In this document: piece by piece, positions 433 to 51,305 of the stretch
Layout of the letters: every line of letters begins with the position of its first letter
How positions within the stretch are numbered: position 1 is the first letter of the stretch
Assembly (NCBI GenBank): GCA_038087875.1
Contig: CM075990.1
Location: 2,854,001-2,918,000, forward strand
DNA length: 64,000 bases
Source: Malacoraja senta
Taxonomy: Eukaryota
Direction: 5' to 3'
The notes under the pieces: generated by a model
Databases searched by the model: none
What the model saw: the letters and a program-made list of their open reading frames with translations, nothing else
Told to the model about the DNA's origin: nothing
Position numbers and translations under genes: made by a program

Positions 433-620
433 GTTAAAGAAGGAACTGCAGATGCTGGAAAATCGAAGGTACACAAAAATGCTAGAGAAACTCAGCGGGT
501 GCAGCAGCATCTATGGAGCGAAGGAAATAGGCAACGTTTCGGGCTGAAACGTTGCCTATTTCCTTCGCTCCATAGATGCTGCTGCACCCGCTGAGTTTCT
601 CCAGCATTTTTATGTACCTC
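433..620. mobile_element. Fold-back Penelope-like short element
   Basis: About 72-bp near-perfect inverted arms meeting at gtttc-gggct-gaaac; 15-bp TSD CTATTATTATCTAGT at 418-432 and 621-635. Confidence 0.75.
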
Positions 621-5470: not shown

Positions 5471-5546
5471 GTGCACGTGTGTATATGTACATGTGTGTGG
5501 GTATATAGATAGATAGATAGATATATATATATATGTGTGTGTGTGA

Positions 5547-5815
5547 TAGACACAAAATGCTGGAGTGACTCAGCAGGACAGGCAGCATCTCTGGAGAGAA
5601 GGAATGAGTGATGTTTCGGGTCGAGACCCTTCTTCAGACTGCCAGGGGAGGGTTTAGATACAGAGATAAGGAAGTGTAAGGTGTGAGAAGGAGACACAAA
5701 GGGCGTGAAGGTCAAGGAAAATGTAGAATAGATCATTGTTAGCTGGTGGAAGGTAACAACGAAGCAAACAGAGATAAAATGTAATGATCGGGGAACTGGG
5801 AAGGGGGAGGGATGG
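5547..5815 (-). mobile_element. Longer Penelope-like terminal fragment
   Basis: Core element plus about 170 bp purine-rich (+ strand) extension; comparable extensions at about 24000-24190, 36570-36690, 37220-37350 and 61190-61320. Confidence 0.65.
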
Positions 5816-6260: not shown

Positions 6261-6356
6261 ATGTATGCATGTGTGTGTCTGTGTGCGTGCATGCGGGTGT
6301 CTGTGTGTGCACGCGTGTGTGTGCATGCGTATGTCTGTGTGTGTGTGTGTGTGTGT
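6000..6356. repeat. Interrupted (TG)n microsatellite
   Basis: Direct reading. Confidence 0.95.
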
Positions 6357-8330: not shown

Positions 8331-9195
8331 AGGCACTGAACTTGAAAAGTAAGGGTGAGATTGTTGACAAGCCAGGAGGTATCTGTGATCACTATGCTAC
8401 CTGAGCTACCTTGCTATCTTAAGTATCTCGGCATATTATTAAAATGGTTTCAGTTTTGCAACTGCAATGAACCTGATAGAACGTATAAAGTTACACTATA
8501 ATTATGTTGCTGCACCTAGTGTTAAAAAACCTTTATGAACTCAGTCGTACTGTTGCTGAGGGGATCCAAAATGCCATTGCTTTCGAACACAAGCCTCTCC
8601 TCTTACGTAACAAGGATAAAGAATAAGAATTATTGTCTCACAAAGCATTGCTTCCAAATTATCCTATGCACATACGCTGCAATCAATAATCCAGTCATTA
8701 GAAAACCATCAACAAAACTGAGAAGATGACAGGAGAGATTGCATCAGTATTGTCAAAAGTACAAACGGTCTTTGCCAACAACAGTACATAGTCCAATTTA
8801 ACCCAATGTCCTCAAGATTTCACTACAGCCAAATGTTGGTGGCTCTCCGAATCGTTCCCGGTTATTCCAGTCAGGCTTCCAGTCTGACCTTTTGTCATAG
8901 GGTGGTGAATCTGTAGAATTCTTTGCCACAGAAGAATGGGGTTAGGAGGGAGAGATAAATCAGCCATGATTGAATGGCAGAGTAGACTTAATGGGCTGAA
9001 TGGCCTAATTCTGCTCCTATCACTTCACAATCCAAGCTATACCTGCTAATTCCACGAGACCTTGCCTCTCATGTCTTCACCCTCAATACTGATCTCCTCA
9101 GTGAGTTTAATTTACTTTACTTTAGAGATACAGCACAGGAACAGGCCCTTCGGTCCACTGAGTCCGCGTCAACCATTGATCACCCTATAGTCTAA

Positions 9196-10608: not shown

Positions 10609-10846
10609 TGTTTAAGAAGGAACTGCAGATGCTGGAAAAGCGAAGGTAGACAAAAATGCTGGGGAAACTCAGCGGGTGAGGCAGCATCTATGGAGCGAAG
10701 GAAATAGGCAATGTTTCGGGTCGAGACCCTTCTTCAGACTTCTTCTTCAGAGTCCGAAGAAGGGTCTCGACCCGAAACGTTGCCTATTTCCTTCGCTCCA
10801 TAGATGCTGCGCTCCCCGCTGAGTTTCTCCAGCATTTTTGTCTACC
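10609..10846. mobile_element. Fold-back Penelope-like short element
   Basis: About 95-bp inverted arms, each with a hammerhead-like motif; TSD CTGTGTAAAGA at 10598-10608 and 10847-10857. Confidence 0.78.
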
Positions 10847-11046
10847 CTGTGTAAAGAAGTTGTCCACATCTCATTTAAACTTTGCCCCTCTCACCTTAAA
10901 ACTAGGCCATTCTTTCATCCTGGGAAAATGGTCTGGCTGTCCAACCTATTTATCTCTCATAATCTTACATATTTCTATCAGGAGATCATATGTCACTTAG
11001 ACAACACTCTTTATATTCTATAACTTAAATAGCAACCTTAATTTTA

Positions 11047-11405: not shown

Positions 11406-11756
11406 GCACAAATATGTAAAAATGTACACAAATATATGACACGTTATATGACTTAAACAGCACTCTTTGTCCCTGTTGAACCAAGGGTCACATCAACCAA
11501 GCATAATTGTCTCCTCACCAACACTGAACATTCAGTTCACTCCCTTAAAATGTATGAAGGAAATATTTCCATGTAATAAAAAGCATCACCATATTCCACC
11601 TTCTGCTTCCAAACAGAAAGCACTCTGCTTCCAAGATGGTGCTCAACCCAGGCTAGCCGCAGAAGCAGATCTACAATCACATATTACGATCGCTCCACAC
11701 TATTAAATCTCTCTTCCCACAGCGACATTTCTTACTTTACCCACAGTATGTAAGAA

Positions 11757-12025
11757 ATATGTTTACATTTTCTGTTGTGCTGCAGCAAGTAAGAATTTAA
11801 TTGTTCTAACTGGGACACATGACAATAAAACACTCTTGACTCGTGACTATCCCTGATCGGACTTTGCTGGCTCAACCTTGCACTGAATGTTATTTGCCTA
11901 ACATGTATCTACACACTGTAAATGGCTCGATTGTAATCATGTATTGTCTTTCCGCTGACTGGTTAGCACGCAGCAAATGCTTTTCACTGTACCTCGGTAC
12001 ACGTGACAATAAACCAAACTTAAAC
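11757..12025 (+). mobile_element. Two tandem unclassified LINE-like 3' ends
   Basis: Tail A gctgc..caagtaagaattt.attgtt..gacaataaaacactcttgac also occurs at about 22010-22120, 25288-25370 (-) and 32620-32725. Tail B ..ttttcactgtacctcggtacacgtgacaataaa also occurs at about 10400-10545, 37370-37455 (-) and 63470-63630. Both end in AATAAA plus a short repeat. Confidence 0.6.
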
Positions 12026-12170
12026 AGTACTAAACAGTCTGAAGGACGGTCTCAACCCGAAACATCACCCTTTCCTTCTCTCCACAGATGCTGCCCATCC
12101 CGCTGAGTTACTCCAGCATTTTGTGTCCATCTGAACGAAACCATCCACAGATAACAACCACAAGATGGGT

Positions 12171-12297
12171 CTGAAGAAGGGTCTCAACCCGAAACGTCAC
12201 CCATTCCTTCTCTCCGGAGATGCTGCCCGTCCCGCTGAGTTACTCCAGCATTTTGTGTCTATCTTCGATTTAAACCAGCATCTGCAGTTCTTTCCTA
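12171..12297 (+). mobile_element. Penelope-like short element starting at the hammerhead-like core
   Basis: CTGAAGA-A-GGGT-CTCA-ACCC-GAAA-CGTC at the 5' end; flanked by direct repeat CACAAGATGGGT. Confidence 0.78.
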
Positions 12298-12590
12298 CAC
12301 AAGATGGGTTGTGTCAGGCCCACTAGTAGAAGAACATATAGAGGCATGGGGACATTGGTACCATTACTGAAGTCATTACTCAACGTAAACCATGCGGGCC
12401 TAATGACCAACACCTCGCCAAGGATCACGTTACACCAACCTGATCGCAGCACCGAATTCCACAATAAACATTAAAACCCCATCTGCAGACAAGCCCAAGC
12501 CAACAGCCTAGACCGCGTGTAAACTAGAAGATGATTAGAGAGCAGATGGGTAGCACACAGCATGCCGTGCCAGAAACACTAGCTGCCCTA

Positions 12591-12764
<174 letters not shown>

Positions 12765-13996: not shown

Positions 13997-14196
13997 NNNN
14001 NNNNNNNNNNNNNNNNNNNNNNNNNNNNNNNNNNNNNNNNNNNNNNNNNNNNNNNNNNNNNNNNNNNNNNNNNNNNNNNNNNNNNNNNNNNNNNNNNNNN
14101 NNNNNNNNNNNNNNNNNNNNNNNNNNNNNNNNNNNNNNNNNNNNNNNNNNNNNNNNNNNNNNNNNNNNNNNNNNNNNNNNNNNNNNNNNNNNNNNN
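13997..14196. other. Assembly gap (200 N) in Pax2 intron 4
   Basis: Run of N. Confidence 1.
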
Positions 14197-16261: not shown

Positions 16262-16734
16262 CTGTGTTGAGTGGTAGAGAGTGCAATGTACATTGTACGT
16301 ATACAACATCACGTTACACAATATGACTAATAATAGTAGTCTAATGGGCGCTGGAACAATCAGCCACCTGTGCTCAGTTACAAGCTGTTCTTCCCCTGTG
16401 CTATTCAAACAGATCTGGGTGATCTTGCCTTCAATAACTGCTCCACTTGCAGCGAGTGTATGCACGACATCTCACTGTGATGTAACTGTAAAATTACACC
16501 AATTACACCAGCTAGGATAATCTATAAATCATCTCCGTAGGAGTACCATCTGTGAAAACAAGTGCAAAAGCAATTGGAGCCCCCCCCACCCCCCACATCT
16601 TCTCCCCAATGTTAACTTTGCTGGGCCCTCACGATATTTATCAAGAACCACTCCCTATCCCGACAGTTAACTCCCTCTCTTCAGTGGCTGCATTGACCTG
16701 GAATTCCTTCATATCCAAGCATCTCTCAAAGGCC

Positions 16735-16950
16735 AAAGATAGACACAAAAAGCTGGAGTAACTCAACGGGACAGGCAGCATCTCTTGAGAAATGGAATAG
16801 GTGACGTTTCGCGTCGAGACCCTTCTTCAGCCCCGACCCAAAACATCACCTATTCCTTCTCTCCAGAGATGCTGTCTGACCCGCTGAGTTACTCCAGCAT
16901 TTTGTGTCTATCTTTGGTGTAAACCAGCATCTGCAGTTCCTTCTTATACA
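16735..16950. mobile_element. Fold-back Penelope-like short element
   Basis: Inverted arms of the same family consensus. Confidence 0.72.
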
Positions 16951-17429
16951 CCCCTCAACGCCTATAGGTGAGGGTAATGCCCAATATAGTACTGAGCCAG
17001 ATTTGCTCTGTACCTTTTCATACCTATAGTTTCTCTCTCCCCTTAATCTCAGTCAGAAGGAGGGTCTCGAACTGAAACGTCACATATTCCTTTTCTCCAG
17101 AGATGCTGCCTGACCCGCTGGGTTACTCCAGCACTTTGTGTCTATCTTCGGTGTAAACCAACATCTGCAGTTCCTTCCGACACATTGTACAGACTCGCAT
17201 AAACAAGTAACTTACATCAGTCAGGGCTGCATAGGAATCCTGCAATATTCCCTAACATACTTTGGTGTAATTCTACAAATTCAGCAAGATAATCTATCCC
17301 AGATTACTGACAAACATCGCAAGTATTGCAGTTGGAGCTGGATGGGATGAGGCTTCGAGGTGTTGGCCATCTTGTTCAGATAGAATATGACACAGTATTT
17401 AGACTCTTGGTTAAATTAACAAGCAGATT

Positions 17430-20290: not shown

Positions 20291-21449
20291 GCCCGCCTGA
20301 CAATTCCTTCCCAGCTTTCTTTATGAAAACACCGATCGAAATTTGGAATAATGTTTGCTGTAATGTGGACAATTCCAGCTTGCCCAGACTCCCCTTCGTA
20401 TTTAAGTCCGCCCTAGATTTGCATACCGGCTCTGCACCCTCTCAATGATGGCGTCGTACCCAGCAACAGTCAGGTCTTTCAGAGGAGAAGGTAGGAAATT
20501 CCTGGGCAGCCGAGAGTTGGCGTGAATTGTGTTACCGCACCAGAGGGGTAATTCCACAGTTGGACCACAGATGCCACTCCTGATCATTGCTAAGCATGAC
20601 ATTATACCAGAGGGCTAATTTTCACTGCACCTGGTTTAGTTGATCTAAAATTGTTAAATCAACCAGATGGCTGCAATTGGTGTTGAAATAAGATAGTCTC
20701 AAAGCACGAATTAAAACATTACAAATAATGATTATTTGGCTAAATTATTACGGTTAATTTGGGAGATTGTTTTTTAAAAATAAGTGCAGAACAGTCAGGG
20801 GATAGATTACCCTTTCACCTCCTAGATCTAAGTCGTTCATCTCTTGAATTTCACATTTAAACTCAGCCAAGAAAGAGTGAGTTAAAATCTGCTCCGCAGA
20901 AAATATGTCTCTTTGCCTGATAATGATGAAGATATAACAGGAAATACATTATCGTTCACTGTTAACTTCACAAGGCTAGTAGGTGTGAGAACTGACATGT
21001 TAGAACATCCTAACATGGGCTTTTAGATTGTAGTGCACATATAGAGCATAGAACACAGTGAAGCACAAGAACAGGCCCATAATGTCTGTGTCAAACAGGA
21101 TAGCGGTTGCAAGATTCACTGCAGAATTTTATATATTTATATATAATATGTGCGTATGTGTGCGTGTGTGTGTGTATGTATGTATATCGGTGGCCCAAAA
21201 GCCCGGTTTCCATGCTGTATCACTAAAACAGGCAAACACACACACACACATATATATGTGTCTGAAGAAGGGTCTTGACCCGAAACGTCACCTATTCTTT
21301 CACTCCATAGATGCTGCCTCACCCGCTGAGTTTCTCCAGCATTTTTGTCTACCTTCGATTTTACCTGCATCTGCAGTTCTTTCTTAAACAACACACATAT
21401 ATACATAGATATGTATGGTCTGTAAACGCCATATTAAACAAAATTCAGT

Positions 21450-21554: not shown

Positions 21555-21591
<37 letters not shown>

Positions 21592-21782
21592 AAGAAAGAA
21601 CTGCAGATGCTGGTTTAAATCGAAGGTAGACACAAAATGCTGGAGTCACTCAGCGGGACAGGCAGCATCTCTGGGGGGAAGGAATGTCTGAAGAAGGGTC
21701 TCGACCCGAAACGTCACCCATTCCTTCTCTCCAGACATATATATATAGTCTGTAAACACAATAAAAATAACAAAAATATTCA

Positions 21783-22925: not shown

Positions 22926-23254
22926 GCCGCCCACCCCCCCCCCCCCCCAAATCCCGGAAATCCCACATCCTGTACTTGCTGCTGTGGCAGTACCCAGGAG
23001 AGTGGCAACATTCTCCTGGCAAATGAACACTCATCTCACTGGCATTCATGGGCAGTTCTGTGTGCGAAGTTTCTAGTGTATTCACCTATTGTGTAACAGC
23101 TGCCCCACTTCGTAGCAATTTATTAAATGTAAAACAACATGTAAGGCACCGGATAAATACATTGTGTCTGAGTGACCACAAGCAAGTCACAGTTTGATTT
23201 CAAATGTCAAACATAATGACCAACATGCCATGTCCACAAAGCAGGAAGGGCTGG

Positions 23255-23585
23255 CTGGTTTAATCCAAAGATGGACACAAAATGCTGGAGTAACTCAGCG
23301 GGACAGGCGACATCCATGGAGAGTAGGAATAGGTGACGTTTCGGGTCGCGACCCTTCTTCAGACTGAGAACCAGCATCTGCAGTTCCTTCTTAAACAAGG
23401 GCTGGTTTAATTTTAGGTAGACAAAAATGCTGGAGAAACTCAGCGGGAGAGGCAGCATCTATGGAGCGAAGGAATAGGTGACGTTTCGGGTCGAGACCGT
23501 TCTTCTTCTTCTGCCTCAACAGCTGAGTTTCTCCAGCATTTTTGTCTACCTTCGATTTTTCCAGCATTTGCAGTTCCTTCTTAAA
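23255..23585. mobile_element. Two adjacent fold-back Penelope-like elements of different subfamilies
   Basis: Units at about 23255-23398 (gagtaactcagc type) and 23412-23585 (gagaaactcagc type); GGCTGGTTTAAT recurs at 23253, 23400 and 23586. Confidence 0.7.
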
Positions 23586-23880: not shown

Positions 23881-24454
23881 CCCGGCCATCTGGAGGGGCT
23901 GGTAATACAATCGTTAGGGCCTGTTTTTTTTGGTAAAATAGATTTCACAAATAGGAATATGTGTTTGCATAATATATAAAGTAGCAAATGTATGACGCAA
24001 TGTGTCCCTCTCTCTCCCCACCCTATTCATCCTGCTAGTTCCCCTGTTCACATCCTTGTATCTCTCTTGTTATCACCTCTTCCCCAGCCAACAATGGGCC
24101 ATTGTGGACTCCACCCTTGTTTGGTCATCGTTTGCCAGGTCTGCTTGCTTCTGGCCTTTTCTTACCACCTGTTCCCTCCCCTCTACTTTCAGTCTGAAGA
24201 AAGGTTCCGACCTGAAACGTCACCTATCCTTTTTCTCTGGAGATGCTGCCTGACCTGCTGAGTTACTCCAGCACTTTTTATCTATCTTTGGTATAAACCA
24301 GCCTCTGCAGTTCCTTTCTACGCGCGTATTAATAACTCTTTCTCTATATAATGGACTTTGAAAAGGCCAAGTATAATGTGGTAGTGGGGCTTTGATAAAG
24401 AGTCCCAAAGACGTCATGGAAAACTCAATGGTCCATATAGCTGTGATGGACTTC

Positions 24455-27141: not shown

Positions 27142-27353
27142 CCTGTGTATGAAGGAACTGCGGATGCTGGTTTAAACCGAAGATAGACACAAAATGCTGG
27201 AGTAACTCAGCGGGACAGGCAGCATCTCTGAGAGAAGGAATGGGCGACGTTTCGAGTCGAGACCCTTCTTCAGTCCCGAAACGTCAGCCATTCCTTCTCT
27301 CCAGAGATGCTGCCTGACCCGCTGAGTTACTCCAGCATTTTGTGTCTATCTTC
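27142..27353. mobile_element. Fold-back Penelope-like short element
   Basis: Inverted arms; TSD AATATTAAACT at 27131-27141 and 27354-27364. Confidence 0.78.
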
Positions 27354-27739
27354 AATATTAAACTGATATGCGCGGTCTTGATTATTTCACCGTGTGTCTC
27401 TGACTAACATGCTACCTGCTTCTAATTTACCAGACACCCCGCGGAAGTGTAATATATATATATATATATATATATGTTTTAATATATGCGACGATTTATA
27501 TCAACAATACTTTTGACAAAACCGAATTTTTTTATGGAGAATTTTAAAGTTAATTTTGGCTGCAAATATTCATTTGATAAGGAATCCGGTGGAATCAAGA
27601 GCGTGTAGGATCATCGATTCTTTCTCTTCGATGCCAATCGTAGATTACTAAACACAGAGGGCATATTAATGTTTAGCAGAAAAAAATGTCTGACCCATTG
27701 TATTTCACCTTTTGTTTCTTTAATATTGTTCCGTCCACA

Positions 27740-28053: not shown

Positions 28054-31000
28054 CCCAGTCTTGACTTGTGTTAAATATTGTCTACCCTCCTGAAGGCATG
28101 TATCAGCAATCGCACATGGGTATCTCGGCACGGTGTTTCTGCCGGTTTATTGACATTAAACAAGGTTCACCACGTTTCCACCACAGTTAGGTGTTCACTG
28201 TAGAACGATCTAACGGAAGAACCGGGACTAGAATTCAGTTCATCGCTTCTTTTACTCCCAAACCAGATTCCTAAAGCCATTTCTGAAACATTTGTTCCAT
28301 ATCTCTCTGTATCACCGTCTATTTCTCTCGTTTCCCTTCCCACTGACTCTCAGTCTGAAGAAGGGTCCGCTATTGCATTTCTCCTGAGATGCTGCCTGAC
28401 CCGCTGAGTTATTCCAGCTTTTTGTGTCTTATCTTTGACATCACCTACTCCTGGTTTCCCACTTTTGATATCCCATCGCTTAACTCTCTCCAAAGGATAA
28501 CGAACTCCGCGCTAATGGCTTACATGGACCGTTTTAGAAACCGAGTGGGGCGTCCGGTCACTTTAAACATATTAGACACTCCCAACCCCCCCCCCCTTCC
28601 CCTCGCCCTTTCTCGCCCCCTCTCGCCTCCCGCCCCCTCTCTCCGTGTTATTGTTTGACCTCTAACACACGGGATCCCCACTCTAGGAGTTCATATAAAA
28701 GCAGTCAATATACATCAAACACTCATTGATTTTAATGGCCACACGATCGCCCACAATCTCCCCAGTAATGTCCTTGGGGCTAGACGACAAAAGCTACAGG
28801 ACTTATCAAAAAAAAGTATCAATATTTTATTTGGATTTTCAAATTCCTCCATAACTATTATTTGACCTATTGACTCGCGCCAGCCACATAAATTCGCCGA
28901 CTTTATTCGGAATCCATGTCCTGGATATTGAATAAGCAATTTAGAAGGGTGAATTAATGAGTTGGCCGCAACAGAAAATTCCCTGAAGAAATATTAAAAT
29001 TGGTTGGGTCGGAATCAATAGCATCGAAAAAAAAGGACTTGTTTTTTTTTAAATGGCCACCACTCGCTGTGTTCTTATCCCTGACTGCAAAGCGCCGGCA
29101 GAATCAAGCCTTGTCTCGTTGTAATCTTTAAAAATTCATGCCAAGAGAAAGCTTAACTACAACGTTTACTTGCCAATGTAATGATCTGAGATAATCCTTG
29201 TATATTGAATTAAAACTCAACATTGCAACGCAACGCCCATTCATTAGGACAGTGGGGGAAATACATGTAATTGTACTGGTGCATTCTAATCTTTTGTATA
29301 AACACCAGCCCCCCCCCCCCCCCCCCCAACTTGATTTCTTTTGTCCACTCCAATTTAATTGAAGATGAAAAGTTGTACATTCGCACTCTAATGGGATTAA
29401 TCCACACTTTGAATGGATCACATACGTATGTTGCAAGAGTCCCCTTTGAGACGACCACGGTGCATTAAATATATATATTTTCCCAGTCTCTTTTTTTTAA
29501 AAACAAAACACACACTAAAATATCTCGTTAATCGCTGCCCCGATCTCCGAAGATCTCATTAAAAGCTACTGCAGTCGATTTTAGGCACAGAAGTTCCTTT
29601 TTGCCAAACGGGTTGTGTGATTTCACTTTCCTTCGCAGTTTTTTTGCAGCAGGCCCACCCTGTCTTTCCCCACAACGTTTCTCCCACACACATTTTGTTC
29701 CCCCCCCAAATATCTTTAAAAGCACCTATTGCCGTATAAATGTTCACACGCATTATGCACGTGGAAGCATAATGCTTTTCGGCGTCAAAAAAATAAAATA
29801 ATACAAGGGTAAATAGAATTGGTCTTCTAACTGATTTTTTTTGTGGGATGTTAACGACGGTCCGTGAGTCTTGGGAAAGAGAAACCAACAGAAAACACGG
29901 AAGGGACAATAGACACAAGGAACTGCAGATGCTGATATATTTCAAAAAATGAAAGACGCAAAGTGTTGGAGTAACTCTGCAGGCAGCACCTCTGGAGAAC
30001 ATGGAAAGGTGACCTTTGGAAGGAAGGGAGGGTTAGTGTTGGAGACTCGATTGTTTCGGGATGGGGGGGGGGGGTGGGAGAGATTAGACTTCACTAAACA
30101 GCAAGCCAATCTAAAATCAAAGCAAGCCCTATCAAATATTAACACCAAAATGTCGTTTTAAACACCTGTTAAATGCTTGGAAAAGTGGCTTAAAAACTAA
30201 AAAACACACACACTTGCTTTTTTTGTTTTTGTTTTCTTGTACAAAATAAACGGGTCTATTGCACCTGATTCAATCTAATCACAGGTGGATCTCTTTTGCT
30301 GTCGCGGTATGAAGTGTGCACTTGTAGATTTTAATTTTACAGTCGCTTGATGTGCCAAAGGCACCTGGAGTCTAGGGAAAGATGAGCGATTCTGTGACTG
30401 TCTTTATCTCCTCGCATTCCCACTTTTACAAGAGTGAAATCGGATACAAGGCACGATTCATTTATCCAATCTCTACTTCCGACAGTCTGGAAGAGGTGTA
30501 CATACACACACACACAAAAAAAAAACTTCCAAAAAGATAAACAATCTATTGTTCCCTAATTGTGACTCGTGGCAAACGAGTTTAAAACATTTGAGTGCGT
30601 TAACGGCGCTGTATTAATTCAAGTCATTGTTTTAAGAGCGTGGCATTGCCAAGGTGGAAAATCACCATTTCTCTTCCCTGTGCTTATTTAACAACGTATC
30701 CTTCCTTTAACCCGTCTTTCCACTGTAATTGCAAAAAGAGCGCCAAGCAAAACTGAGAGGCAACTATTTCAGCCGGTTCAGATGTTTGTGGATTAATTAT
30801 AGGGAATAATGCACAGTGAAAAGAATGTTCAATGCCCAAATACCATGAGCCCAAAATTCTGCTGCATTAACTTGGAAGGGTAATAAATAATCAATTAAGT
30901 ATTTCTATATATATATATTAGTCCAGCTCCATATTTATGATTCCTTCCTTACAGTTGGATAAATAACACTCACGCATCAGCGTCCGACATTAATGAGGGG

Positions 31001-33054
31001 GATTTAAAAGTAACTTTTACTTTTTCTTTTCCCCAAATGGGTCTTCGGGATCCGAAAAGTTGCCAATAGATTTACCGGTGGACATGGGTGCAGTTTGCTG
31101 GGAAGGAGATGGCTATTTGTGTGGAAATGCGGGGAAGGGACTCTCAAAGACCACCCGGGGGGAGGGATATTACCTTTACTGTTAGAAGCAAAAAACGTTG
31201 ACTTGCCACAAGATAATTTCGGACTGATAATGATTTTTTTTTACACACAAAACGATGTGCAATAAAGTGAGGCAAGAGAAAGTGGAAGCGAATAGCAAGG
31301 TGGAACACGAATATGTACAAGGAGTGAGAAGAGGGCAAAGAGATGGGCAGGTATGGGGTCCAGAGACAGTGGGCTAAGACAGGTGCACAGAGCGGAGGCG
31401 ACTACTTTGGGTAGATTACATTTTCAACTGTACATGTAAATGACTTGCACCGAAATTACCAGGCGCGCAAGCGAAAAACTGCCTCGGTAAATTCGGATTG
31501 TAGATTTTCCCTCCCCTTGGCTTCAACGCTGGCTCTTGTCAAATGTCGAGTCTTTTGTCTAGCGCTAACCCTCCCCGTGTTTCCCCAAATCCGTGCCAAC
31601 CGCCCAACCTGGAGTAACTCAGCGGGACAGGCAGCATCTCTGGAGAGAAGGAATGGGTGACGTTTCGGGTCGAGACCCTTCTTCAGACATTCCTTCTCTC
31701 CAGAGATGCTGCCTGTCCCGCTGAGTTATTCCAGGTTGGGCGGTTTCGTGTCTATCTTCGGTTTCAATCGACATCTGCAGTTTCTTCCGACACGTTTCGA
31801 CAGCCCGACGTGCCGGTTTGTGTAAACTATCCCGCTCAGCCCGGAGGTTTGTCGAATAGCGACCAGTTCCCAGCGCTTGAGCTACCAGCTCCGTCAAGGC
31901 ATCGGGGAGAATGTTCTCAACCGCCGGCCAGCTTGCAATCTTTAAATCAATGTCCTGAAAGACCCGCCCTAATAGTTTACATTTGCACCAATTTGCAATT
32001 ATATTAAACGGCCAAAAGGGCATTGCGTCCGGGTCTGATTCGGCTTTACTTTCATTCATAGTCTTATTTTATTCCCCGCGGTCCCAAGTGAAATGAGACG
32101 GGAGCCGACATTCCTGGCGTTTAGTGTGTTTTCATTAGGATTTCATGTTTAGAATTACATTTACTCCTTGGTGATCACAAAACAAAAATCGAGATTACTC
32201 TGAATACATTACATATTATGTGGCTGGGTTCTGCCTTTCACTGGTTTAGATCCTTTGAAGAAGCCTTATGTTTAAAGCCAATATCTTCACACAGACTATC
32301 CCGTTTCACATGCAGGTATCGGTGAAACCCAGCGCATTGCAAACTTGGATTTTTTAAAAATACATTGTCAAGGTATTTCCTCCGTTTTTGTCCCTACGAA
32401 AGTTCCTGCCCCAATTGAATTGAATTTCCACCCACCAAAGTTGCACGATGGACAACAGCTTCTCCCAGTGAACTTTGCCCAACGCTAACCTCAACCTCAG
32501 GAACTGTGATTTCCTATAGACCTCCGACTTCGAGTTTGCACTATTGTGGTTTCAACCACCTAGTATTACTGACTATTAATGTATTGTATTATTGATTATT
32601 GTATATTTAATTGTTGGTTTTGCGTGTTATGGGCCAGTCAAGCTGCGGCAAGTAACAATTTCATGGTTCCATTGAGGCACTATAACAATTAAACGATCGT
32701 GACTTTTTTTAAACTCTTGACTCTTAAATAGATTTTGGTTGGTTAAATGTATTTGTGTGGTTCGGATACTTACAATGAAGGTCCGCTTAAGGAATCTAAC
32801 ACGTGCCATGTTAAAGGTATATTTAATATCATACACAATTTTACCATTAAATCGATTTATACGTTTGACTCTCGCCTTCTTGATGAAATATGCCCAATTC
32901 TCGATTAACCGATATGTTTTATTGGTATGGAACAAGGTAGAACTAGGTTACATGGACCAATTGTTGAGTAAAACTAGAATAATTCCCATGTTTAGGATAC
33001 GTTTCCATCGTTTTATATACCTGTAATATTAGGTGTTTTTTTTAAAGTTGGCGT

Positions 33055-33299: not shown

Positions 33300-33596
<297 letters not shown>

Positions 33597-33621: not shown

Positions 33622-33793
33622 GCAGGAAGGAACTGCAGATGCTGGTTTACACCGTAGACACAATATGCTGGAGTAACTCAGCGGGACAGGCTGACTTTCT
33701 TCAGTCTGAAGAAGGGTCTCGACCTGAAACGTCACCCATTCCTTCTCTCCATAGATGCTGCCTGTCCCGCTGAGTTACTCCAGCATTTTGTGT
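33622..33793. mobile_element. Fold-back Penelope-like short element
   Basis: Inverted arms with an intact CTGAAGA..GAAACGTC motif at about 33706-33733. Confidence 0.72.
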
Positions 33794-36700
33794 TTAAAAT
33801 ACATTCAGTGGTCCTTTATTGTAACTATATGTAAGAATCGTACGTACGCCGTGTGTATATCTATATATTAAATATTTCTGATACACACACGCAGACATAC
33901 ACGTATAGATATATGTATAATTATAGAATTGGTGCATCTTTCGTGTAATTAAATGTAAGACAACGATAGCAAAAGTCGACCTCACTCGTTATTTACAGCG
34001 CCATAAAATAGATAGGGAGCAGCAGAATGCAAATAAATCAGTGCATGTATGCAATGGTGTTAACTTGTGCTGGTTGCAATCCTCCCTCCACTCTGAAACA
34101 AACCATTACGTCTCTCTGGGACCGGACAGCTAAGGGCACGGATGCACGTCCCTTTTTTTTGGTTTGAATGGAGAAACAATTTTAGCCAGGACATAATTAA
34201 TATTAAAATTGGCAAGGCTTGCAGCGCTGAATGTTGGCTTTGGTGATGAAGTGTGGTTAATGAATGCGGGAGGTCGACTGCTCTTTTTGCCAACGTCTTT
34301 TTTTTTTTTGCCCTCCCATTCGCCACCCCCACCAAAAAAAGCGAAATAGATAGAAGAGTGGAACTGGGATGAGGAAGAAATTAGAGGAAGAGAGATTTTA
34401 AACATTACTCGGGATGTGTGTTAAAAAGTTGATTTCTTTCCAAGCCCTCGGTTCTGTCCCTTTAACATGTAGGAATGAACGGTTTTAGCTGTTAGTGGTG
34501 GCCACTTTCAGCCTAGCCGTGTTATCTGATGTCACCTCTGAAGCCAAGAGCAAATGTTACAGTGTGAACAAGAATTGTGTGTTTAGTTTCAACCGAGTCT
34601 TATCGACTCCGCTGACACATAGAATCGGCCTCCCAGCCTATTTTACAATAAATAAAAAAAATTAATGGCAAAGGATAGTTGAGATTGTTAAAACTCATAA
34701 GCGGGGGAAATAAATTAAATAGGATTCGACACCTTTTTTTTGCGTCGTTTGATTTCGCCTATCAACGGGAACCCGCATCTAACTCGCCCTGTTTATATCA
34801 GTGAGCGTGTCGGATTAAACCCCGCGAAATGCTTCTAGTGTTTCAACACGCAACGATAATTTATTTTTTTGCCACCCAATGTGCACTCTCTACACGGAAG
34901 AGCCCGCGTTATCAGGCGGACGTCGCAATTATTTCCCACTGCACAGATGGGTAAGGTGTGACTGATTCTTTCTTTCGGGTTTCACTACACACGGGGTGTT
35001 TAGACCTGCGCGTCTACCCCACTCCCCACCGCGAACCGTGCAACCACATTCACCTTTTAACAACACACACTGGTTTATTCGCGTTGCACACCGAACTTTC
35101 AGTGCATTAAATAGCGCATGGAACGGAAAATATTAAACTTTGCCCAAATGTCACCCCTTGCCAATGTTTTCTGTGTTTTCCACACAATGCTGGAGTAACT
35201 CAGCGGATCGGGCAGCAGCTCTGGAGTAAAGGAATACGTTTTTCCCTTTTTATGCATCTATCTTCGGTTTAAGCCGGCATCTGCAGTTCCTCCCTGCACC
35301 TTTTGAATGTTCCACTTTGAATTATCTTCTGTTATCACCTCGATCAATGATAGTTACAAGCAACGCAGTGCGATTAAAGTGACAGCGAATGAAAATAAAA
35401 TGATATTGCCTGCCCTACAATCGTCAAAATCCGAACAATATTTTCTCAGTAATTTGTAAATTTGTAAATTTAATCAGTGGAATCGGCGACGGACTTTCTC
35501 CTTCAGTCAGGGGCGTGCGATTGATACTGCAGTATTTAGTCTACAGGGCAAACCTAGGCTCACTTCAGACTCGTTAAAATAATAGTTTAAAAAAGACTGG
35601 TATAAAATAACCAGGGTCTCGAAACGTCACCCATTCCTTCCCTCCAGAGATGCTGCCTGTCCCGCTGAGTTACCCCAGCATTTTGTGTCTATCTTCAAAA
35701 TAATATTATGCTGGCCACGACAAACACGGGAAGTTTCCCCGTTGCTTTAAATACCTGTTCTCTCCCCGCTCAGCTTATTTTTCCCAATAGCTGAACTAGT
35801 CTATAAGGATATGGTTTGTTTTAATAAAGGGAGAAGCGCTTTAGTCTTGGGCGGGAGGGAGCTGTTGGGTCAAATCGAAAGCCTGCACTCACTCACGGAG
35901 GGCTTGAGAAGGGAGGAGGAAGAAGAATATACAGTGGCTTCTAAGCTGCACCTGTTCCCACACGGCGGCCGCGATCTACATAAACCACGTCACCCTGCCC
36001 AGGGGGGCTCAACGTCCCCACCCCCACTCTAAACGCATTCCCCTCTTTCTGTGCCGTGTAAGTGATTCCTTCCGTTAAGTGTCGACCTGGTCTACTTCAA
36101 GCTGAAATGCGCGCACAATGAAGAATGGCAGTTCATAAATGTTTGGCAAATGTTTTGGTACTAAAGAGGGATTAGGTTAGAAGTGCTTGCCCGCTTTACG
36201 CCTCCTGTGGTGTTGACTTCTCCCCCCTCATCCCACGACCCCCTCTCCTTCGGAGACTTGGAACGTTTACTTTGCACTTTGCCTGTCTTATATTTGTGGG
36301 GGGGGGGGGGGGGATATTTGGGCTCGCGTTTTATAGTCTGGAGAAGCCATCTATGATTGTCAGCCTGAGATTTTATTTGTTCATTGTGTTAACTGGTTTT
36401 CTTGTCAAAAACGAAACCACAACGCTGTAAGAATTATATAGAAACCACTACTAACCTATACATGGTTAAACGTGGTTTGAGGTTTAATCTGTGCCTGGGT
36501 TACCGCTCCTGCCTAATTCCCAAATTTAAACTCTAGGATAGGATTGAGTGTATATATATTTATATACACCATTGTGGGCTCCACCTCTCCTTGATCATCG
36601 TTGCTGGCTGTGATCGGTCTTTTTTTTTAAACACTTCATTCATTTGTTCTATGTGGCTTTTCATATCTCTCGGTTCCCTCTTCCCCGACTTTCAGTCTGA

Positions 36701-36952
36701 AGAAGGGCCTCGACCTGAAACGTCACCCATTCCTTCTCTCCAGAGATGCTGCCTGTCCGCTGAGTTACTCCAGCGTTCGGTGTAAACGAGCATCTGCAGT
36801 TCCTCCATATATATATATTTATATAACAGATACAAAAAGCTGAAGTAACTCGCGTTTTATAGTATTCTGGGTTTGTGTCTATCTTCGGTGTAAACCAGCA
36901 TCTGCAGTTCCTTCCTTCACAGAATCCTTAATATCTGTTGACATCCATATAC

Positions 36953-37105
<153 letters not shown>

Positions 37106-37579
37106 GTCCCGCACCCTAATCGTCTTATTAGTTTTACTGTCGTGGAGTAACTCAGCAGGACAGGCAGCTTCTCTGGACAGAAGGAATGGGTGACGTTTCG
37201 GGTCGAGACCCTTCTTCAGACTAAGAGTCAGGGCAGAAGGGGAATGAGAGACATAGACGGTACTTGGGATAAATTAATGGCAGATATGTAGAAAGTAATG
37301 GTAATCAAGGAAACGTGGAGCTCACAATGGTCCATTGTTGGCTGTGGGATAGGTTCAGTTCAGGTTTTGTTTTTATTGTCACGTGTACCGAGGTACAGTG
37401 AAAAGCTAACCAGTCAGCGGAAAGACATGATTACAATCGAGCCATTTACAGTGTCTGAATACAGACAGTGGAACTCAACAGGACGACAGTAAAACTAATA
37501 GGAAAACTAGGGTGGGGGACATAAATATATGTGTATGTGCGTATACATATATATGGATGTGAAGCAGATATTAAGGTTT

Positions 37580-37778
37580 TCTGTGTAGGACGGAACTGCA
37601 GATGCTGGTTTACATCGAAGATAGACACAAAATGCTGAAGTAACTCAGCGGGACAGGCAGCATCTCTGGAGAGAAGGAATGGGTGACATTTCCGGTCTGA
37701 AGAAGGGTCTCGACTCCATTCCTTCTCTCCAGAGATGCTGCCTGTCCCGCTGAGTTACTCCAGCATTTTGTGTCTATG
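37580..37778. mobile_element. Fold-back Penelope-like short element about 60 bp from the exon 2 donor
   Basis: Inverted arms; flanking direct repeat AAGGTTTT. Confidence 0.72.
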
Positions 37779-37835
37779 AAGGTTTTACCGCCGCGTTTGT
37801 TTGAATTTTTGGTCGCTGGTAGTATCACCCCTCAC

Positions 37836-42954: not shown

Positions 42955-43203
42955 GTCTGAAGAAGGGTCACCCATCCCCTCGCTCCAGGTTGGGGCGGTC
43001 GAAATGTGTAGGAAGGAATTGTAGATGCCGGTTTTAACCGAAGATAGACTCAAAATGCTGGAGTAACTCAGCGGGACAGGCAGCATCTCTGGAGAGAAGG
43101 AAAGTCTGAAGAAGGGTCTCGACCCCGAAACGTCACCCATTCCTTCTCTCCAGAGATGCTGCCTGTCCCGCAGAGTTACTCCAGCATTTTGTGTCTATCT
43201 TCT
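42955..43203. mobile_element. Composite fold-back Penelope-like element
   Basis: Inverted arms at about 43045-43203 plus a short fragment at about 42955; CTGTAGGT on both flanks. Confidence 0.68.
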
Positions 43204-45589
43204 GTAGGTGGCGCTGGCTTTGTATATCTCGAGGAAGGAGACTCGCCCGCTTCTGGGCGACTCCAGAGCTGGGAGCGTTAAGACACCCTTTAGCCCAGGA
43301 CACAATTGAAACTTTATTTAAAAAAATACTGTCTGAAACACTGGCCAACGGAACTTTGTTAAACCTTTCTAGGCATTAATTTAGTAGTGACTCGGAATAA
43401 AATGGCTCTTTGATCTTTTCCAAATGAGAGATTATTCGATACTTAATGTGTATGCAAACCCTGCCTCGCCAGTGCTGCCTATATTGAATTAATTTTACTA
43501 CTTACTATTGCGACCCTTCTTGGAATAGAATCAATCGTCTGATTTCTTGGTGACAAATTATTTAATCTATCATCGCACTGCTTGTTTCAAACGATTTCCC
43601 GTCATCGTGTGGTGGATTTTGTAATTGAAATATTTTCTTCGTGGATTCCAACCTCTACCCACCCACTCTCCCCTCCACCCCGCGTGCCCATCCACCAGCA
43701 CCTCGCCCCCCCTCTACTCCCACCCCCTCCCTCTCCCTCCCCTCCGCCCATTCCCATACTTCAAGTAAAATTTTAGTTTGCAAACAATTGGCGCTTTCAC
43801 TACCGCGTTTTAAAGGTGCCCGTTCCTACGACAACAAATCCTAATGTGAAGAATTTTACAGCCAACACTGGTACCAAGATAAACTTAAAGAAAACTTTCA
43901 GGGCATTCAAATCAGTCTTAAGTTTTGATTAAAAAAAAAACATATTTCAAACATAGGGAAACTCAAATTCGTGCTCTGGGTCAATTTTAATAAAATGTAA
44001 TTAATAACTAATGTCAAGTAGAACAGACTGACTTTCGCTGTGAGTTAGTTGGGTGTAGCCAATTTGCAATAAAAGGAATTTTTTCTTTATCTGCGATTCT
44101 TCCCAGCTCCCGGGTAACAGCATGTAAGGGTATAAATTGCCTGTTATTTGTCACCCCTACTAAATGACAGGGAAGGACTGTCGCCCTGTTAAAACAGGTC
44201 GTTCGAGTTGAATCTGTGCACATTCATTTGATCAGTTCCTTAATAACTTGAATGTTATTAAAAGCTTGAAATGTTAATCGACATTGAGCAGAGAAAATGG
44301 CCACTGTCACTTAAAGAGTAAAAAACAAAGCTGCAAATCGGAGCTGGAAGGGAACGTGGTTTTATACCGTGAATAAAAATAGGGACAGATTAGTACAAGG
44401 TGTATTTTATCCCGTGGACAGCGGCGCGGTAGATCCATGTCTATCAGAAGCGAGGATAAGAGTGAACATATTCACCCCGCTGATTCCTCCAAAGTGGTGC
44501 TTTCCCCTGAATTTGATGCCCAGCACTGAAAATATCGATGTTTCCATCAGCCGCAACCACATAAAAGTACCTCTTTATTCAAGGTAGAGTAGGTGGGATC
44601 CTGTACTGTTCATTATCTGCACATCAGTCCTACCCCTTGAGTTTTAGTACCCCAGCCCTGAAAACGCCAACTTTGCACATTGATGGGACCTTGTGATAGT
44701 GGTGCGAAACGCGAAATTAGTAGTCAAAAGAAGCGCCAATACCCCGGAATCATGCCAAGTAATAATAATCCAAGTTATACTGATTGTATAATAATATAAT
44801 TGTCAGTTTAATTGAAGACTGCGAGGCAAACGCACTCGTTATTGATTCTGGGCGCAGTTTAGAGAAGGTATATTTTCAAAAATAAAAAATAAATAAACGA
44901 CCTGATGAAATTTAGAATGGACATCAAGTCTATTATTTGATGTGCAATTGTGTCGCGTCCCTTGGCATGGGAAGGGGTGGGGGAGAGTCCAAGATTTTGG
45001 GGAGTAATGCTTGGATAATCCCGTTCTTCGCTCTTTCATGAACCTATTTCACAGGAAGCTCCCTCGAATCATTTACACTTCAAAGAGGTCCGCCGCCTCG
45101 TCCAACGGAAATTAAAGAAAAATAAAGGTTTTGGGGGGAGGAGAGGGGAGGGGAGTGTGTTTTCAGAGACCGAGAGAGAGAGAGAGTGTTATGGATCACC
45201 TCGAATACCACCGAGGTCCATTGGCAATTCATTTTTATACACTATCCAAAAGAGGCAAATCGCTTCGATTATCCGGTTTATTCACAGTGCCCTTGTCCCG
45301 CTCACTATTTAGCTCTATAATCGTGTTACGTGTAAATATATTGGCCCGATTTTGACGCCTCGCGGTGTTTACACACAGGATTACTCTCAGCAGTATCGTT
45401 GCCTTTGATCTGGATTTACGGGTCTTCTCAGCCGCGGAGCAAGTGCCAATGGTTTAAATGTTAAATGTAGAATCTGACAGAAGACTGGGAGATTGAACTG
45501 GAAAGTTGGGTGTAAATTTGATTACAATGCTTTGACTTGGGGCAATTCCAAATGAAGGGGAAAAAAATCGCACTGAACTTTCTTTATTT

Positions 45590-47740: not shown

Positions 47741-47948
47741 AAGAGTAGAAACAAGGAACTGCAGATGCTGTTTATAAAATAAGATACAAAGTGCTGGAGT
47801 AACTCAGTGGATCAGGCAGCATCTCTGGAGAACATGGATAGGTGACGTCTCGGGTCGGGACCCTTCTTCAGTCCGAAACGTTACCTATTCCGTTTATCCA
47901 GAGGTGCTACCTGACCCGCAGAGTTACTCCAGCACTTCGTGTCTTCTC
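47741..47948. mobile_element. Fold-back Penelope-like short element
   Basis: Inverted arms; TSD TGCTCAAGCA at 47731-47740 and 47949-47958. Confidence 0.75.
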
Positions 47949-48271
47949 TGCTCAAGCAGACATTAATAAAACAGGTACATGGATGACAGGTACACAATCT
48001 TGCACACACACTCATATTAAGAAACACATATACACAAACATGCACACCTAAATATTAGCACACCCTATAGGTCTATATATGTGTGTGTGTATCCACAGTG
48101 ACTCCGAGGGCGAATTTAAAAAAATGCCACACGTGTAGGTTTACACAGATAAGTAGAATTGTAGCTGGATTAAGAAACATGATACCAAACGCGTTTACTA
48201 TTTCCCACACAGGCAGGTACAAACAAACATACAGACAGTCAGGTGCATGAGCCTTCACTCTGATAAGAGAC

Positions 48272-48666: not shown

Positions 48667-51163
48667 GGACACAGTGTCCGCCACTCTGAATGCGCTTTGC
48701 TATGAAATGAATGAGAAGTTGGCCTATAAATTATTCCGGAATCTCTGTGTACACCTACCAGTTTTACTTGAAATTTGAATTTGCTGATGGACTCTTTTTT
48801 TCTCTCCTGGGTGGGTGTTGAAAGAATGGAGAGAGAGAGACTCAGGTTTCGAGTGGGGAAGCTTATGTGGTGCAAGAGAGCTTGGTAAAGAGGAAACAAT
48901 TGTCACCGATGGCTAAAAGTAAAGGGACATCTAAATTAACTCCATTTAACCCTGTTGGGGATCATGAATGTGGTTTCTTTACAGAAGCCACTGGCATAAC
49001 CAAAAACAAGCGGGAGAACATTTGTTTATGCCCACGCACTAGTTGGTTGTATTTGCTAACATTAAACAGCAAAGTGTAAATGTGACCACATTGAACAGCG
49101 AAGTCTAATTATACTCAACTTTTCAGTTTCACTTGCATAGACAAGTGATCTCCCGAAAATAGAACAATAGGGTAAAATATAAAATACATAAATGGTGGGG
49201 GTGGGGGATGGGGGGGGGGGCTTTTAAAAGAAAACATCTGAATGAGAATAAGTGCAAGTTGTCCGCGTTCTATTTATCACCTGTGTTGCATGCACAAAGG
49301 CTTTTAAACAATGTACCACTGATTTAAATCCCATTGTCCTAATGCACTTTAACACACATGGAAGGAATATGACAACCATTAGGGGGAATACAGACCATTT
49401 GTGGAATTATAGACTATGTTTGGCTTTGAAATCATTTTTTCCACTAACTCCGGGAGTACTGTTTTGGTTAGCAGATAATTGGTGGGAAATTGTAATATGG
49501 CAATTGATGCTCACAGAGATTAAAGCCCCCCAAAAAAGAGTGTCGACGCCTAATTAAAAGCTGTTTGAGCGAGTGACAGAAATCCATTGGTCTTTAGCAT
49601 CAGCTGTTTAACTGTTTCTAGTGGCTGGCTTGGGCCACAAGCCCTATTCGGAGACCGGGCTTAATAGCTTCCAGCCTAGCCTGAGCAACCGGGCGGTCGC
49701 CGGGCGCTTTTTTCACTTTCCCCAATCCGGCCAGGTGCGCCGTTACTCAGCGCAGACTAGTTCGCAGCAGTCACAGCCCAGCTCCCAGTGTCGGAGGCGG
49801 CTTTAAAGCGATCGATGTATTTAAGCCTCTGTAGGACGTGCTGCCAATAGGTGTGAGTTTTGCCACATAACCTCTCTTTGGTACAGTTATTGGAACATTT
49901 CATTGTGTGTAACCCGGTAAATATTGACGCGATGATTTACCGTTTAACGGGGTGGGAGGGGGGGGGGGGGTTGTGGGAGAGGAGGTAAAAGTGAACGGTT
50001 GCTATAAGGTGGTGTTTGCTTTAACAGTTGGGGGGACGTTATGGAGGAGAATTGATCCATTAATTAATACAAATTAATAATTTATTGCAAACATTTTCAT
50101 GATAAGCGGAATGTATTTGACAGCGCCGGGTGTTACAAACTGAGTATGATATTGTGTGATTGAAGTTTTGCAAAACGGCTGGGCAAATTTATAGCTGAAT
50201 ATTTAGTGTGTGCTGTCTTGTATCCGTTTAAAAAGTTACCAAGAGTGCCTGAGAAAGCCAGCAAAATTTAAACGGCCAAGCGCGCTTTATTTCCAGCGGT
50301 GGGCTTGTCAATCAATCACCTCTATCGATACATCAATCATTGTGTCAATTAATATATCATATTAGAAGCTCGCTGTGATTATCTATTTATTTATTTATTT
50401 GGCTGCATTACTCTACGCGAGGCGGCGGCGATCGCGGCGAAGGCGGTCTGCGGGATTAAATTCAATTTCTTCGTTAGCGTTTAATCAAAATAATTGGTGT
50501 AATAGTGTCGCTTCGCCGTGCTTAGAATAATGGGAGCTGGGGGCACGGATCTCTCGCCCGGTTGCCGATGAGATTCTCAGAAGATGTGCCCTGTGTTTAA
50601 ATCACATTTCTATGCATTTCTAACCAAACGCGTGGAGCATTTTTAATATCCACACACAGAATGCTCTGCACATTTTCAGATAACATATTCCCGCTTTAGT
50701 GTTTAACGCCGAACGTTACACTCGGCAGAAAGGGATAAAAAGCCTGAGAGTATTCACCATTGAAAATAATTGCCACACAGCTGTGACTTCGTATTTATTT
50801 AAAATTAATTAGCATCACGTAACATCAACTCATCTCGGCTTTGCTTCACTGAAACGCAACATTTTTTTTTTAAACGTACCAGTATAGTTATATATTCGAG
50901 ATTGTTAGTTTTGTTCCGGGCAGTGACCCAATTCGCGATTTGAGGCAAAGTTTTGGCGTTTCAAAGGCACGGGTTCGCGTTGAGAAAATAATTGCATTGT
51001 TTTGATGCCGTGCTTTTTAGACAATGTTATAAGAACTGCAAGACAGCAGGCATTGAATTGCAAGTGTGTGTTAAAATAGGCTGTTTGATGCGAGGGCCAT
51101 GTGGACAGACAAGACTGCAAGACTTTACAATTCTCAACATACTCACACACGATTATACAATGT

Positions 51164-51305
51164 GTGGGAAGGAACTGCAGATGCTGGTTTACACCGAACA
51201 TGGGCACAAAATGCTGGAGTAACTCGGTGGGACAGGCAGCATCTCTGGAGAGAAGGAATGGGTGACGTTTCGGGTCGAGACCCTTCTTCAGACCTTCTTC
51301 ACAGT
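51164..51305 (-). mobile_element. Penelope-like short element
   Basis: Consensus-like single arm; TSD TTATACAATGT at 51153-51163 and 51306-51316. Confidence 0.78.

What the first reader, a model, noticed from the sequence alone, without database searches (positions are those of the whole stretch)
12165..12204. Abundant short retroelement family carrying a minimal hammerhead ribozyme motif
Seen: more than 30 copies of a 100-300 bp element occur across the window, and many contain CTGAAGA-A-GGGT-[4-nt loop]-ACCC-GAAA-CG-TC (e.g. 12171-12198, 21262-21289, 24194-24221, 61321-61348). The stem stays paired while the loop varies (CTCG, CTTG, CTCA, GCCG, TCCG). The copy at 24194 has a compensatory AGGT/ACCT stem. 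Established: CUGANGA..GAAA..UH is the hammerhead core; an extra A between A9 and G10.1 occurs in natural hammerheads; Penelope-like elements carry minimal type I hammerheads whose helix III is a short palindrome and which cleave as dimers. Here helix III is the loopless palindrome ACGT (AACGTT in a second subfamily), which can pair only between two copies. Inference: this is a non-autonomous or heavily truncated Penelope-derived, ribozyme-bearing family that is dense inside Pax2 introns in both orientations. Caveat: helix I is only about 2 bp in most copies. At 12165-12204 a 6-bp helix I (ATGGGT/ACCCAT) forms, but its 5' strand comes from the target-site duplication.
Basis: partly seen in the sequence, partly recalled or inferred. 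Interest (0 to 1): 0.72.

Follow-up and report, generated by a model that had tools for sequence, protein, structure and literature searches.

The report
Penelope-like tails with minimal hammerheads
A short repeat that litters this animal gene region carries a minimal hammerhead self-cutting RNA motif and is most likely the dead end-piece of a Penelope-like jumping gene, an association already described, with no sign that these copies cut the host gene's RNA.

Summary
The motif is real. A ~133-nt repeat occurs as 53 pieces at 38 loci, and 13 copies fit a minimal type I hammerhead descriptor (0.01 expected). The insertions bear Penelope-like-element (PLE) marks: 15 head-to-head inverted pairs, an optional ~35-nt tail on exactly one arm in 12 of 12 scored pairs, and 10-15-bp target-site duplications. 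The motif fits the published PLE min-HHR consensus (PMC4209133, Fig. S3). No RT/GIY-YIG parent was found, so membership is inferred. Nothing shows activity: stem II covariation is not significant, the core is no better kept than the rest, there is no strand bias, only 1 of 41 copies starts at the cut site, and only the flagged copy folds helix I, from its target-site duplication and antisense to Pax2. One odd point: 20 of 41 short copies start exactly 2 nt before the core, next to a splice-acceptor/initiator-like site seen in longer copies. Verdict: new member of a known kind, low interest.

The parts
12169..12300 (+). Flagged copy of the ~133-nt unit (hammerhead motif, downstream segment, ~35-nt tail)
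12171..12198 (+). Minimal hammerhead core: CUGANGA, extra A, 4-bp stem II, GAAA, CG palindrome without loop, UC; predicted cut after 12198
   Evidence: matches consensus in PMC4209133 Fig. S3
12159..12170 (+). Left target-site duplication (12 bp); its last 6 nt form the 5' strand of helix I
12298..12309 (+). Right target-site duplication
12199..12204 (+). 3' strand of helix I in this copy
12264..12300 (+). Optional tail (about positions 96-132 of the unit; boundary approximate)
   Evidence: 3' ends cluster at 88-104 (17 of 48) and 120-132 (23 of 48)
12037..12135 (+). Adjacent tailless copy with mutated core
24000..24322 (+). 5'-extended copy (~190-nt pyrimidine-rich upstream part ending in CAG, then core and tail); A-U pair at the base of stem II
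5544..5814 (-). 5'-extended copy, no tail
16980..17182 (+). 5'-extended copy with tail (start approximate)
28270..28449 (+). 5'-extended copy with internal deletion (start approximate)
36570..36811 (+). 5'-extended copy with tail
37143..37364 (-). 5'-extended copy, intact core, sense to the Pax gene
61138..61411 (.). Inverted pair: short tail arm plus 5'-extended arm with intact core at 61321
435..619 (.). Head-to-head inverted pair (second subfamily), 15-bp target-site duplication
10610..10848 (.). Head-to-head inverted pair (second subfamily), 11-bp target-site duplication
16729..16949 (.). Head-to-head inverted pair
21588..21735 (.). Head-to-head inverted pair, intact core at 21688 (+)
23396..23585 (.). 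Head-to-head inverted pair
27145..27366 (.). Head-to-head inverted pair, intact core at 27273 (-), 10-bp target-site duplication
31608..31792 (.). Head-to-head inverted pair, intact core at 31686 (-), sense to the Pax gene; predicted long hairpin
33622..33804 (.). Head-to-head inverted pair, core at 33706 (+)
37583..37794 (.). Head-to-head inverted pair
43006..43205 (.). Head-to-head inverted pair, core at 43106 (+)
47750..47949 (.). Head-to-head inverted pair, 10-bp target-site duplication
62244..62420 (.). Decayed head-to-head inverted pair
21260..21389 (+). Solo copy with tail in AT/CA microsatellite DNA, intact core
23242..23364 (-). Solo copy, intact core, sense to the Pax gene
51162..51293 (-). 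Solo copy with tail, intact core, 11-bp duplication offset by 20 nt
33311..33508 (-). Host context: paired-box exon of a Pax2/5/8 gene (further exons near 37837-38003, 26700-26790, 12630-12760; edges approximate)
   Evidence: Pax2 rather than Pax5/8 rests on recalled diagnostic residues

Best explanation
The repeat carries a minimal type I hammerhead motif and is most likely the terminal-repeat (pseudo-LTR) end of a Penelope-like retrotransposon, copied into the genome in very large numbers as short, likely inert fragments. Shown here: a 133-nt unit with two alternative 3' ends about 35 nt apart, head-to-head inverted pairs inserted as one unit between target-site duplications, at least three subfamilies, and the motif at the 5' edge of most short copies. 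Inferred mechanism: the GIY-YIG nuclease of an autonomous PLE elsewhere in the genome would nick both strands of a target; its reverse transcriptase would start inside the element RNA at two sites (the two 3' ends), as measured for the anole element; the cDNAs would stop early, mostly 2 nt upstream of the core, and two of them would often be joined head to head. The motif would work, if at all, only in the parent RNA, as a dimer through the ACGU palindrome and with protein help. The genomic copies then decay neutrally. The 6-bp helix I of the flagged copy is an accident of its insertion site.
For: Motif fits the PLE min-HHR consensus NNN CUGANGAH G..C GAAAN-palindrome-NUH with a U-rich 5' flank; 2-bp helix I examples are in the same alignment (Culex, Drosophila) (PMC4209133 main text parts 1-2 of 4, supplement parts 1-2 of 3). 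15 head-to-head pairs among 53 hits, against 1 tail-to-tail neighbour. In 12 of 12 pairs with both arms scored, exactly one arm has the tail. 3' ends fall at 88-104 (17 of 48) and 120-132 (23 of 48). Inverted 5'-truncated partners, a 30-40-bp optional tail and microsatellite bias are listed as PLE features in PMC8557442 (passages) and PMC3846280 (passages: 31-bp tail on one of the inverted pLTRs, 8-10-bp duplications). [quoted passage not shown] Duplications of 10-15 bp flank 4 of 12 pairs examined and 10-16 bp flank 5 of 14 single units, 3 of these 5 in microsatellite-like DNA. 95,164 and 107,406 contigs laid in two probably-DNA runs of different organisms; 4 of the 15 joints shown (299 hidden) are strand switches at 24188-24193, the 5' edge. 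Neutral decay: core 0.91 vs rest 0.89 (p=0.41); intact motifs 5 sense vs 8 antisense to the Pax gene.
Against: No PLE protein is linked: 300 of 333 complexity-filtered reading frames of 55+ codons gave no GIY-YIG and only one RT, which looks CR1-like (recalled) and is not attached to a copy in parent orientation. Five collection scans found nothing. The read lay-out did not display sequence upstream of 24000. Rfam found no hammerhead family at E<=1. Stem II covariation is not significant. One degenerate pair (36788-36920) has tail sequence on both arms. Co-folding two copies did not predict the ACGU helix III (the energy model lacks tertiary contacts). The sharp 5' edge is not explained by random truncation.
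Confidence: 0.85

Rival explanations
1. The 133-nt unit is a self-standing non-autonomous element (SINE-like or retrozyme-like) with its own master genes, mobilised in trans by PLE proteins, rather than a truncation product of the autonomous element.
For: 20 of 41 non-extended copies start at positions 1-3; 18 of those 20 have G at position 1 and 16 of 20 share at most 1 nt with the upstream extension. Subfamilies differ by frame-shifting 1-nt indels. pLTR-derived non-autonomous retrozymes are reported, including in one chondrichthyan (bioRxiv 10.64898/2026.07.22.740005, parts 1-3 of 5).
Against: Two of the three subfamilies occur both as short and as 5'-extended copies. There are no tandem arrays with a complete motif in each unit; the only adjacent direct pair (12037/12169) has a broken first core. 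Unit ends do not lie at the cut site (1 of 41), as a ribozyme-processed monomer would.
Confidence: 0.25
2. Some copies act as real ribozymes in host RNA, cutting Pax2 pre-mRNA as dimers or when flanking DNA completes helix I.
For: 13 copies keep core, stem II and palindrome, 5 of them on the Pax sense strand. The flagged copy folds helices I and II in context (pair probabilities 0.63-0.86).
Against: The flagged copy is antisense to the Pax gene. In 0 of the 5 sense copies does helix I form, and helix II forms in only 1 of 5. No strand depletion (5 vs 8; solo copies in the gene body 6 sense of 18). Published min-HHRs cleave poorly even as dimers, the anole one only with its protein, and 8 of 9 Xenopus dimers did not cleave.
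Confidence: 0.05
3. The hammerhead look is a coincidence in an unrelated repeat family.
For: No Rfam hammerhead hit, no covariation, helix I only 2 bp in most copies, and helix II probability about 0 in 3 of 4 full-length units folded.
Against: Chance about 2e-5 per 133-nt family. The extra A and the G-C pair at the base of stem II match the PLE consensus, and the insertions show independent PLE marks.
Confidence: 0.03

Closest known systems
Minimal hammerheads (min-HHR) in the pLTRs of metazoan Penelope-like elements (Cervera & De la Pena 2014, PMC4209133)
   Same: [quoted passage not shown]
   Different: Stem II is short (4 bp) and helix I only 2 bp; no cartilaginous fish among the 56 motifs of Fig. 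S3; far higher density (38 loci in 64 kb) than the 4,000-9,000 per genome reported for coelacanth and Xenopus; parent ORF not shown here.
Poseidon element of Anolis carolinensis, PAc (Frangieh et al. 2024, PMC11167929)
   Same: Two internal 3' ends that define a tail about 85-120 nt past stem II; insertion ends unrelated to the cut site.
   Different: The PAc ORF starts at stem II; here no start codon or frame is shared by the subfamilies (read). No protein in hand.
Non-LTR retrozymes (Cervera & de la Pena 2020, PMC7229834, passages; Li, Clavereau & Pollet 2026 preprint)
   Same: Short, non-coding, hammerhead-bearing, pLTR-related.
   Different: Retrozymes are head-to-tail arrays with a motif in each unit (canonical type I in the 2020 examples); these are solo or head-to-head copies whose ends ignore the cut site.

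Membership tests
min-HHR of metazoan PLEs | Core CUGANGA...GAAA...UH with an extra nucleotide after A9 | tested here: met
   13 descriptor hits vs 0.01 expected
min-HHR of metazoan PLEs | G10.1-C11.1 closing pair and paired stem II | tested here: met
   G-C in 19 of 28, G-U in 3, A-U in 1; 91% of 112 cells paired
min-HHR of metazoan PLEs | Palindromic 15.2-16.2 without loop 3 | tested here: met
   CG in 22 of 28, the rest CpG-decayed CA or TG
min-HHR of metazoan PLEs | Helix I of 2-5 bp | tested here: inconclusive
   2 bp in most copies, 6-7 bp only at 12165 through the duplication; predicted to form in 1 of 13
min-HHR of metazoan PLEs | Covariation across families | tested here: inconclusive
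   Not significant among 28 window copies; copies of one young family have little power
min-HHR of metazoan PLEs | Self-cleavage as dimer or with protein | not testable with these tools
   needs an in vitro assay
EN+ Penelope-like elements | ORF with PLE-type RT and GIY-YIG endonuclease upstream of the pLTR | tested here: inconclusive
   None in 300 of 333 filtered frames; no genome held; the longest copy reaches only ~200 nt upstream
EN+ Penelope-like elements | Inverted 5'-truncated partner copy | tested here: met
   15 head-to-head pairs; strand-switch joints at the 5' edge in other runs
EN+ Penelope-like elements | Optional 30-40-bp tail, often on one end only | tested here: met
   two 3' end clusters; one arm only in 12 of 12 scored pairs
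EN+ Penelope-like elements | Target-site duplication around the whole unit; microsatellite targets | tested here: met
   4 of 12 pairs and 5 of 14 single units; several copies in AT/CA repeats
EN+ Penelope-like elements | Intron in the pLTR ending near helix I | tested here: inconclusive
   Pyrimidine tract (0.73-0.87 vs 0.51) plus YAG 1 nt before the core in 6 of 7 extended copies; splicing not observed
Non-LTR retrozymes | Tandem repeats with a complete hammerhead in consecutive units | tested here: not met
   no such array among 53 hits
Non-LTR retrozymes | Circular RNA product | not testable with these tools
   only assembled contigs were available
Rfam hammerhead families | Score against the covariance models | tested here: not met
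   no hammerhead family among 57 matches at E<=1

The most novel reading that the evidence does not exclude
The short copies are not random truncations but run-off cDNAs of the very 5' end of the PLE messenger, like retroviral strong-stop DNA: reverse transcription starts at the two internal sites in the first pseudo-LTR and falls off the RNA 5' end, which is fixed 2 nt before the hammerhead core by a transcription start (initiator-like TCAGT) or by splicing at the acceptor-like YAG. Splicing there would also swap the 5' strand of helix I and so could switch the ribozyme on in the spliced RNA only. The 1e5-scale copies would then be a genomic record of PLE priming, twin-priming and RNA processing.
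Probability: 0.3. Interest if true: 0.55.

Novelty: new member of a known kind. Interest (0 to 1): 0.2.

Why it matters
As a ribozyme finding it adds one very abundant family, probably from a cartilaginous fish, to a class known since 2014. Its value is as material for PLE mechanism: thousands of insertions with two fixed 3' ends, one fixed 5' edge and one-armed tails can test how PLE reverse transcriptase primes and stops, and whether the hammerhead plays any part. The ends here suggest that it does not.

Tried and rejected
No whole genome is held. Rfam scan: no hammerhead family, only hairpin and microsatellite noise. Pattern scans of viral, metagenome (27, 56) and prokaryote (57) collections: 0 matches each. 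Protein search with the one open 44-codon frame of a copy against longer proteins: none at E<=0.001, weak evidence. Pfam on 300 of 333 filtered frames (146 low-complexity frames and the 33 shortest were left out): no GIY-YIG; short PLE motif patterns in six frames found nothing credible. Sequencing runs: no RNA holder listed on record, and only contigs were available, so start, cut and splice sites and expression could not be read; the two 'RNA?' runs are guesses and are not used as evidence of transcription. Consensus folding gave an alternative pairing of the core with the pyrimidine tract, without covariation support. A sequence-only model R1 was built and not used. Literature: 7 searches listed no paper on this family or on a fixed 5' edge of short PLE copies; Repbase and Dfam could not be consulted, and the preprint's supplementary tables (closed) may hold this family. 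Supplement search of PMC11167929 gave no hits. PMC8455134 (passages) only lists Penelope among whale shark elements; PMC11979771 (passages) has no whole-word mention. Rejected: cut-site-defined monomers (1 of 41 starts), selection on intronic copies, the 24194 stem as proof of covariation.

Full report
Observation. The flagged 40 bases are as described: a 6-bp helix I, the core CUGAAGA with one extra A, a 4-bp stem II with a 4-nt loop, GAAA, the loopless palindrome and UC. They belong to a repeat of about 133 nt. A profile built from 17 near-complete copies found 53 pieces in the window and none in 5 shuffles; these make 38 loci and 5,188 bases, about 8% of the window. A strict descriptor (core, paired stem II, paired 15.2-16.2, no helix I) hit 13 places against a mean of 0.01 in 100 shuffles. 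Since the hits are copies, the fair figure is the chance that one 133-nt family holds the motif, about 2e-5. Rfam lists no hammerhead match at E<=1.

Host context. Paired-box exons lie on the minus strand; the best solved-structure matches are Pax5 and Pax8, and the name Pax2 rests on recalled residues. The flagged copy is therefore antisense to the gene. 40 of 53 pieces lie downstream of the first exon found, 13 upstream. That the host is a cartilaginous fish is my inference from recalled repeat families, not from a call. The repeat is genome-wide: 95,164 and 107,406 contigs were laid on one 531-base copy in two probably-DNA runs from different organisms (contig counts are not copy numbers, and 88-92% of each run was read).

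Anatomy. (a) 3' ends fall in two groups, positions 88-104 (17 of 48 scored units; 5 weak hits left out) and 120-132 (23 of 48), which defines an optional tail of about 35 nt. (b) 15 loci are head-to-head inverted pairs; one tail-to-tail neighbour was seen. In 12 of 12 pairs with both arms scored only one arm has the tail; one of the three unscored pairs has tail sequence on both arms. (c) Duplications of 10-15 bp enclose 4 of 12 pairs examined, so each pair is one event; 5 of 14 single units have 10-16-bp duplications, 3 of them in microsatellite-like DNA. (d) 7 copies extend 70-200 nt upstream into related pyrimidine-rich sequence. Of the other 41, 20 start at positions 1-3, that is 2 nt before the core (p about 1e-15 against a crude uniform null), with unrelated flanks, and only 1 starts at the base after the predicted cut. 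In other runs, 4 of the 15 joints shown are strand switches at this same edge. (e) At least three subfamilies differ by substitutions and 1-nt indels but share the core.

Comparison with the literature. Cervera and De la Pena (PMC4209133; main text parts 1-2 of 4, supplement parts 1-2 of 3) define the PLE min-HHR; this motif fits their consensus, their alignment has 2-bp helix I examples, and no cartilaginous fish is among its 56 motifs. Inverted truncated partners, the 30-40-bp tail and microsatellite bias are PLE features (PMC8557442 and PMC3846280, passages). For the anole element, both target strands are cut and extended, RT starts internally at two sites that define the tail, the hammerhead cuts only with the protein and is not needed for insertion (PMC11167929, parts 1-2 of 4). 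This accounts for (a)-(c) well. A 2026 preprint (parts 1-3 of 5) derives tandem retrozymes from pLTRs and finds them in one chondrichthyan; this family is not arranged in such arrays. Earlier notes of this scan on other cartilaginous-fish genomes reach the same reading, one of them with the same 5' edge; they are unchecked and not independent support.

What is missing. No PLE ORF was linked. Pfam found no GIY-YIG in 300 of 333 filtered frames, and the single RT hit (19221-19682) looks CR1-like by recall. Five collection scans and one protein search were empty. Membership thus rests on the motif plus insertion anatomy.

Is it a working ribozyme here? Nothing says so. Core positions are no better kept than the rest (0.91 vs 0.89, p=0.41). 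Intact motifs show no strand bias (5 sense, 8 antisense). In local folds helix II is likely in 3 of 13 and helix I only in the flagged copy, where 4 of its 6 pairs come from the target site; with about 28 copies one such match is not unexpected. Co-folding two copies did not give the ACGU helix, a weak result because the model has no tertiary energy. These tests say the copies are unselected; they do not say the parent motif is inactive.

The open point. The fixed 5' edge sits at a site that in longer copies reads as a pyrimidine tract (0.73-0.87 against 0.51) followed by YAG in 6 of 7, and also as an initiator-like TCAGT (consensus recalled). In Drosophila Penelope a 75-bp intron lies 46 bp after the start site (PMC2377424, passages) and ends at helix I. 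Short copies keep the G of that AG (18 of 20) and show no shared first exon, which fits a transcription start or an RT stop better than plain splicing. I think a run-off from the RNA 5' end is the most interesting reading (about 0.3); only contigs were available, so it could not be tested. Seven paper searches listed no description of it.

Verdict. Observation confirmed; interpretation right in kind, overstated in evidence and novelty. New member of a known kind; interest 0.2.

Noticed in passing
window 1937-2233, 8010-8318, 23590-23890, 27739-28056 and about ten more: A second abundant repeat of ~300 bp with a tRNA-like head on one strand, 70-80% identical between copies; resembles the HE1/V-SINE of sharks and rays by recall. 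One copy near 19780-19900 is interrupted by a piece of the hammerhead repeat.
   Followed up: no
window 18448-19780 (-), with related 3' pieces at 22530-22790, 24453-24781, 45590-46014, 54206-54479, 60215-60474: Broken LINE with an RT fragment (PF00078, 19221-19682); CR1-like by recall; some 3' pieces are 93-95% identical to each other.
   Followed up: partly
window 24240-24277 and the same segment of every copy: The segment just after the motif draws about ten times more contig depth than the hammerhead part, so it is shared by more distant families; it can pair with the tail (8 bp) and may be the protein-binding or priming structure.
   Followed up: partly
window 21686, 31688, 43104: Three inverted pairs have nearly the same junction: one arm starts at position 1, the other at 34-36, giving a long hairpin closed around the core. 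A recurrent fold-back point.
   Followed up: partly
window 37365-37475 and 11753-12025: A third small repeat is nested inside the upstream extension of the 37221 copy and also lies just before the 12037 copy.
   Followed up: no
window 13997-14196 and 38899-39098: Two 200-base assembly gaps; the first Pax exon was not found by motif and may lie in or near the second.
   Followed up: no
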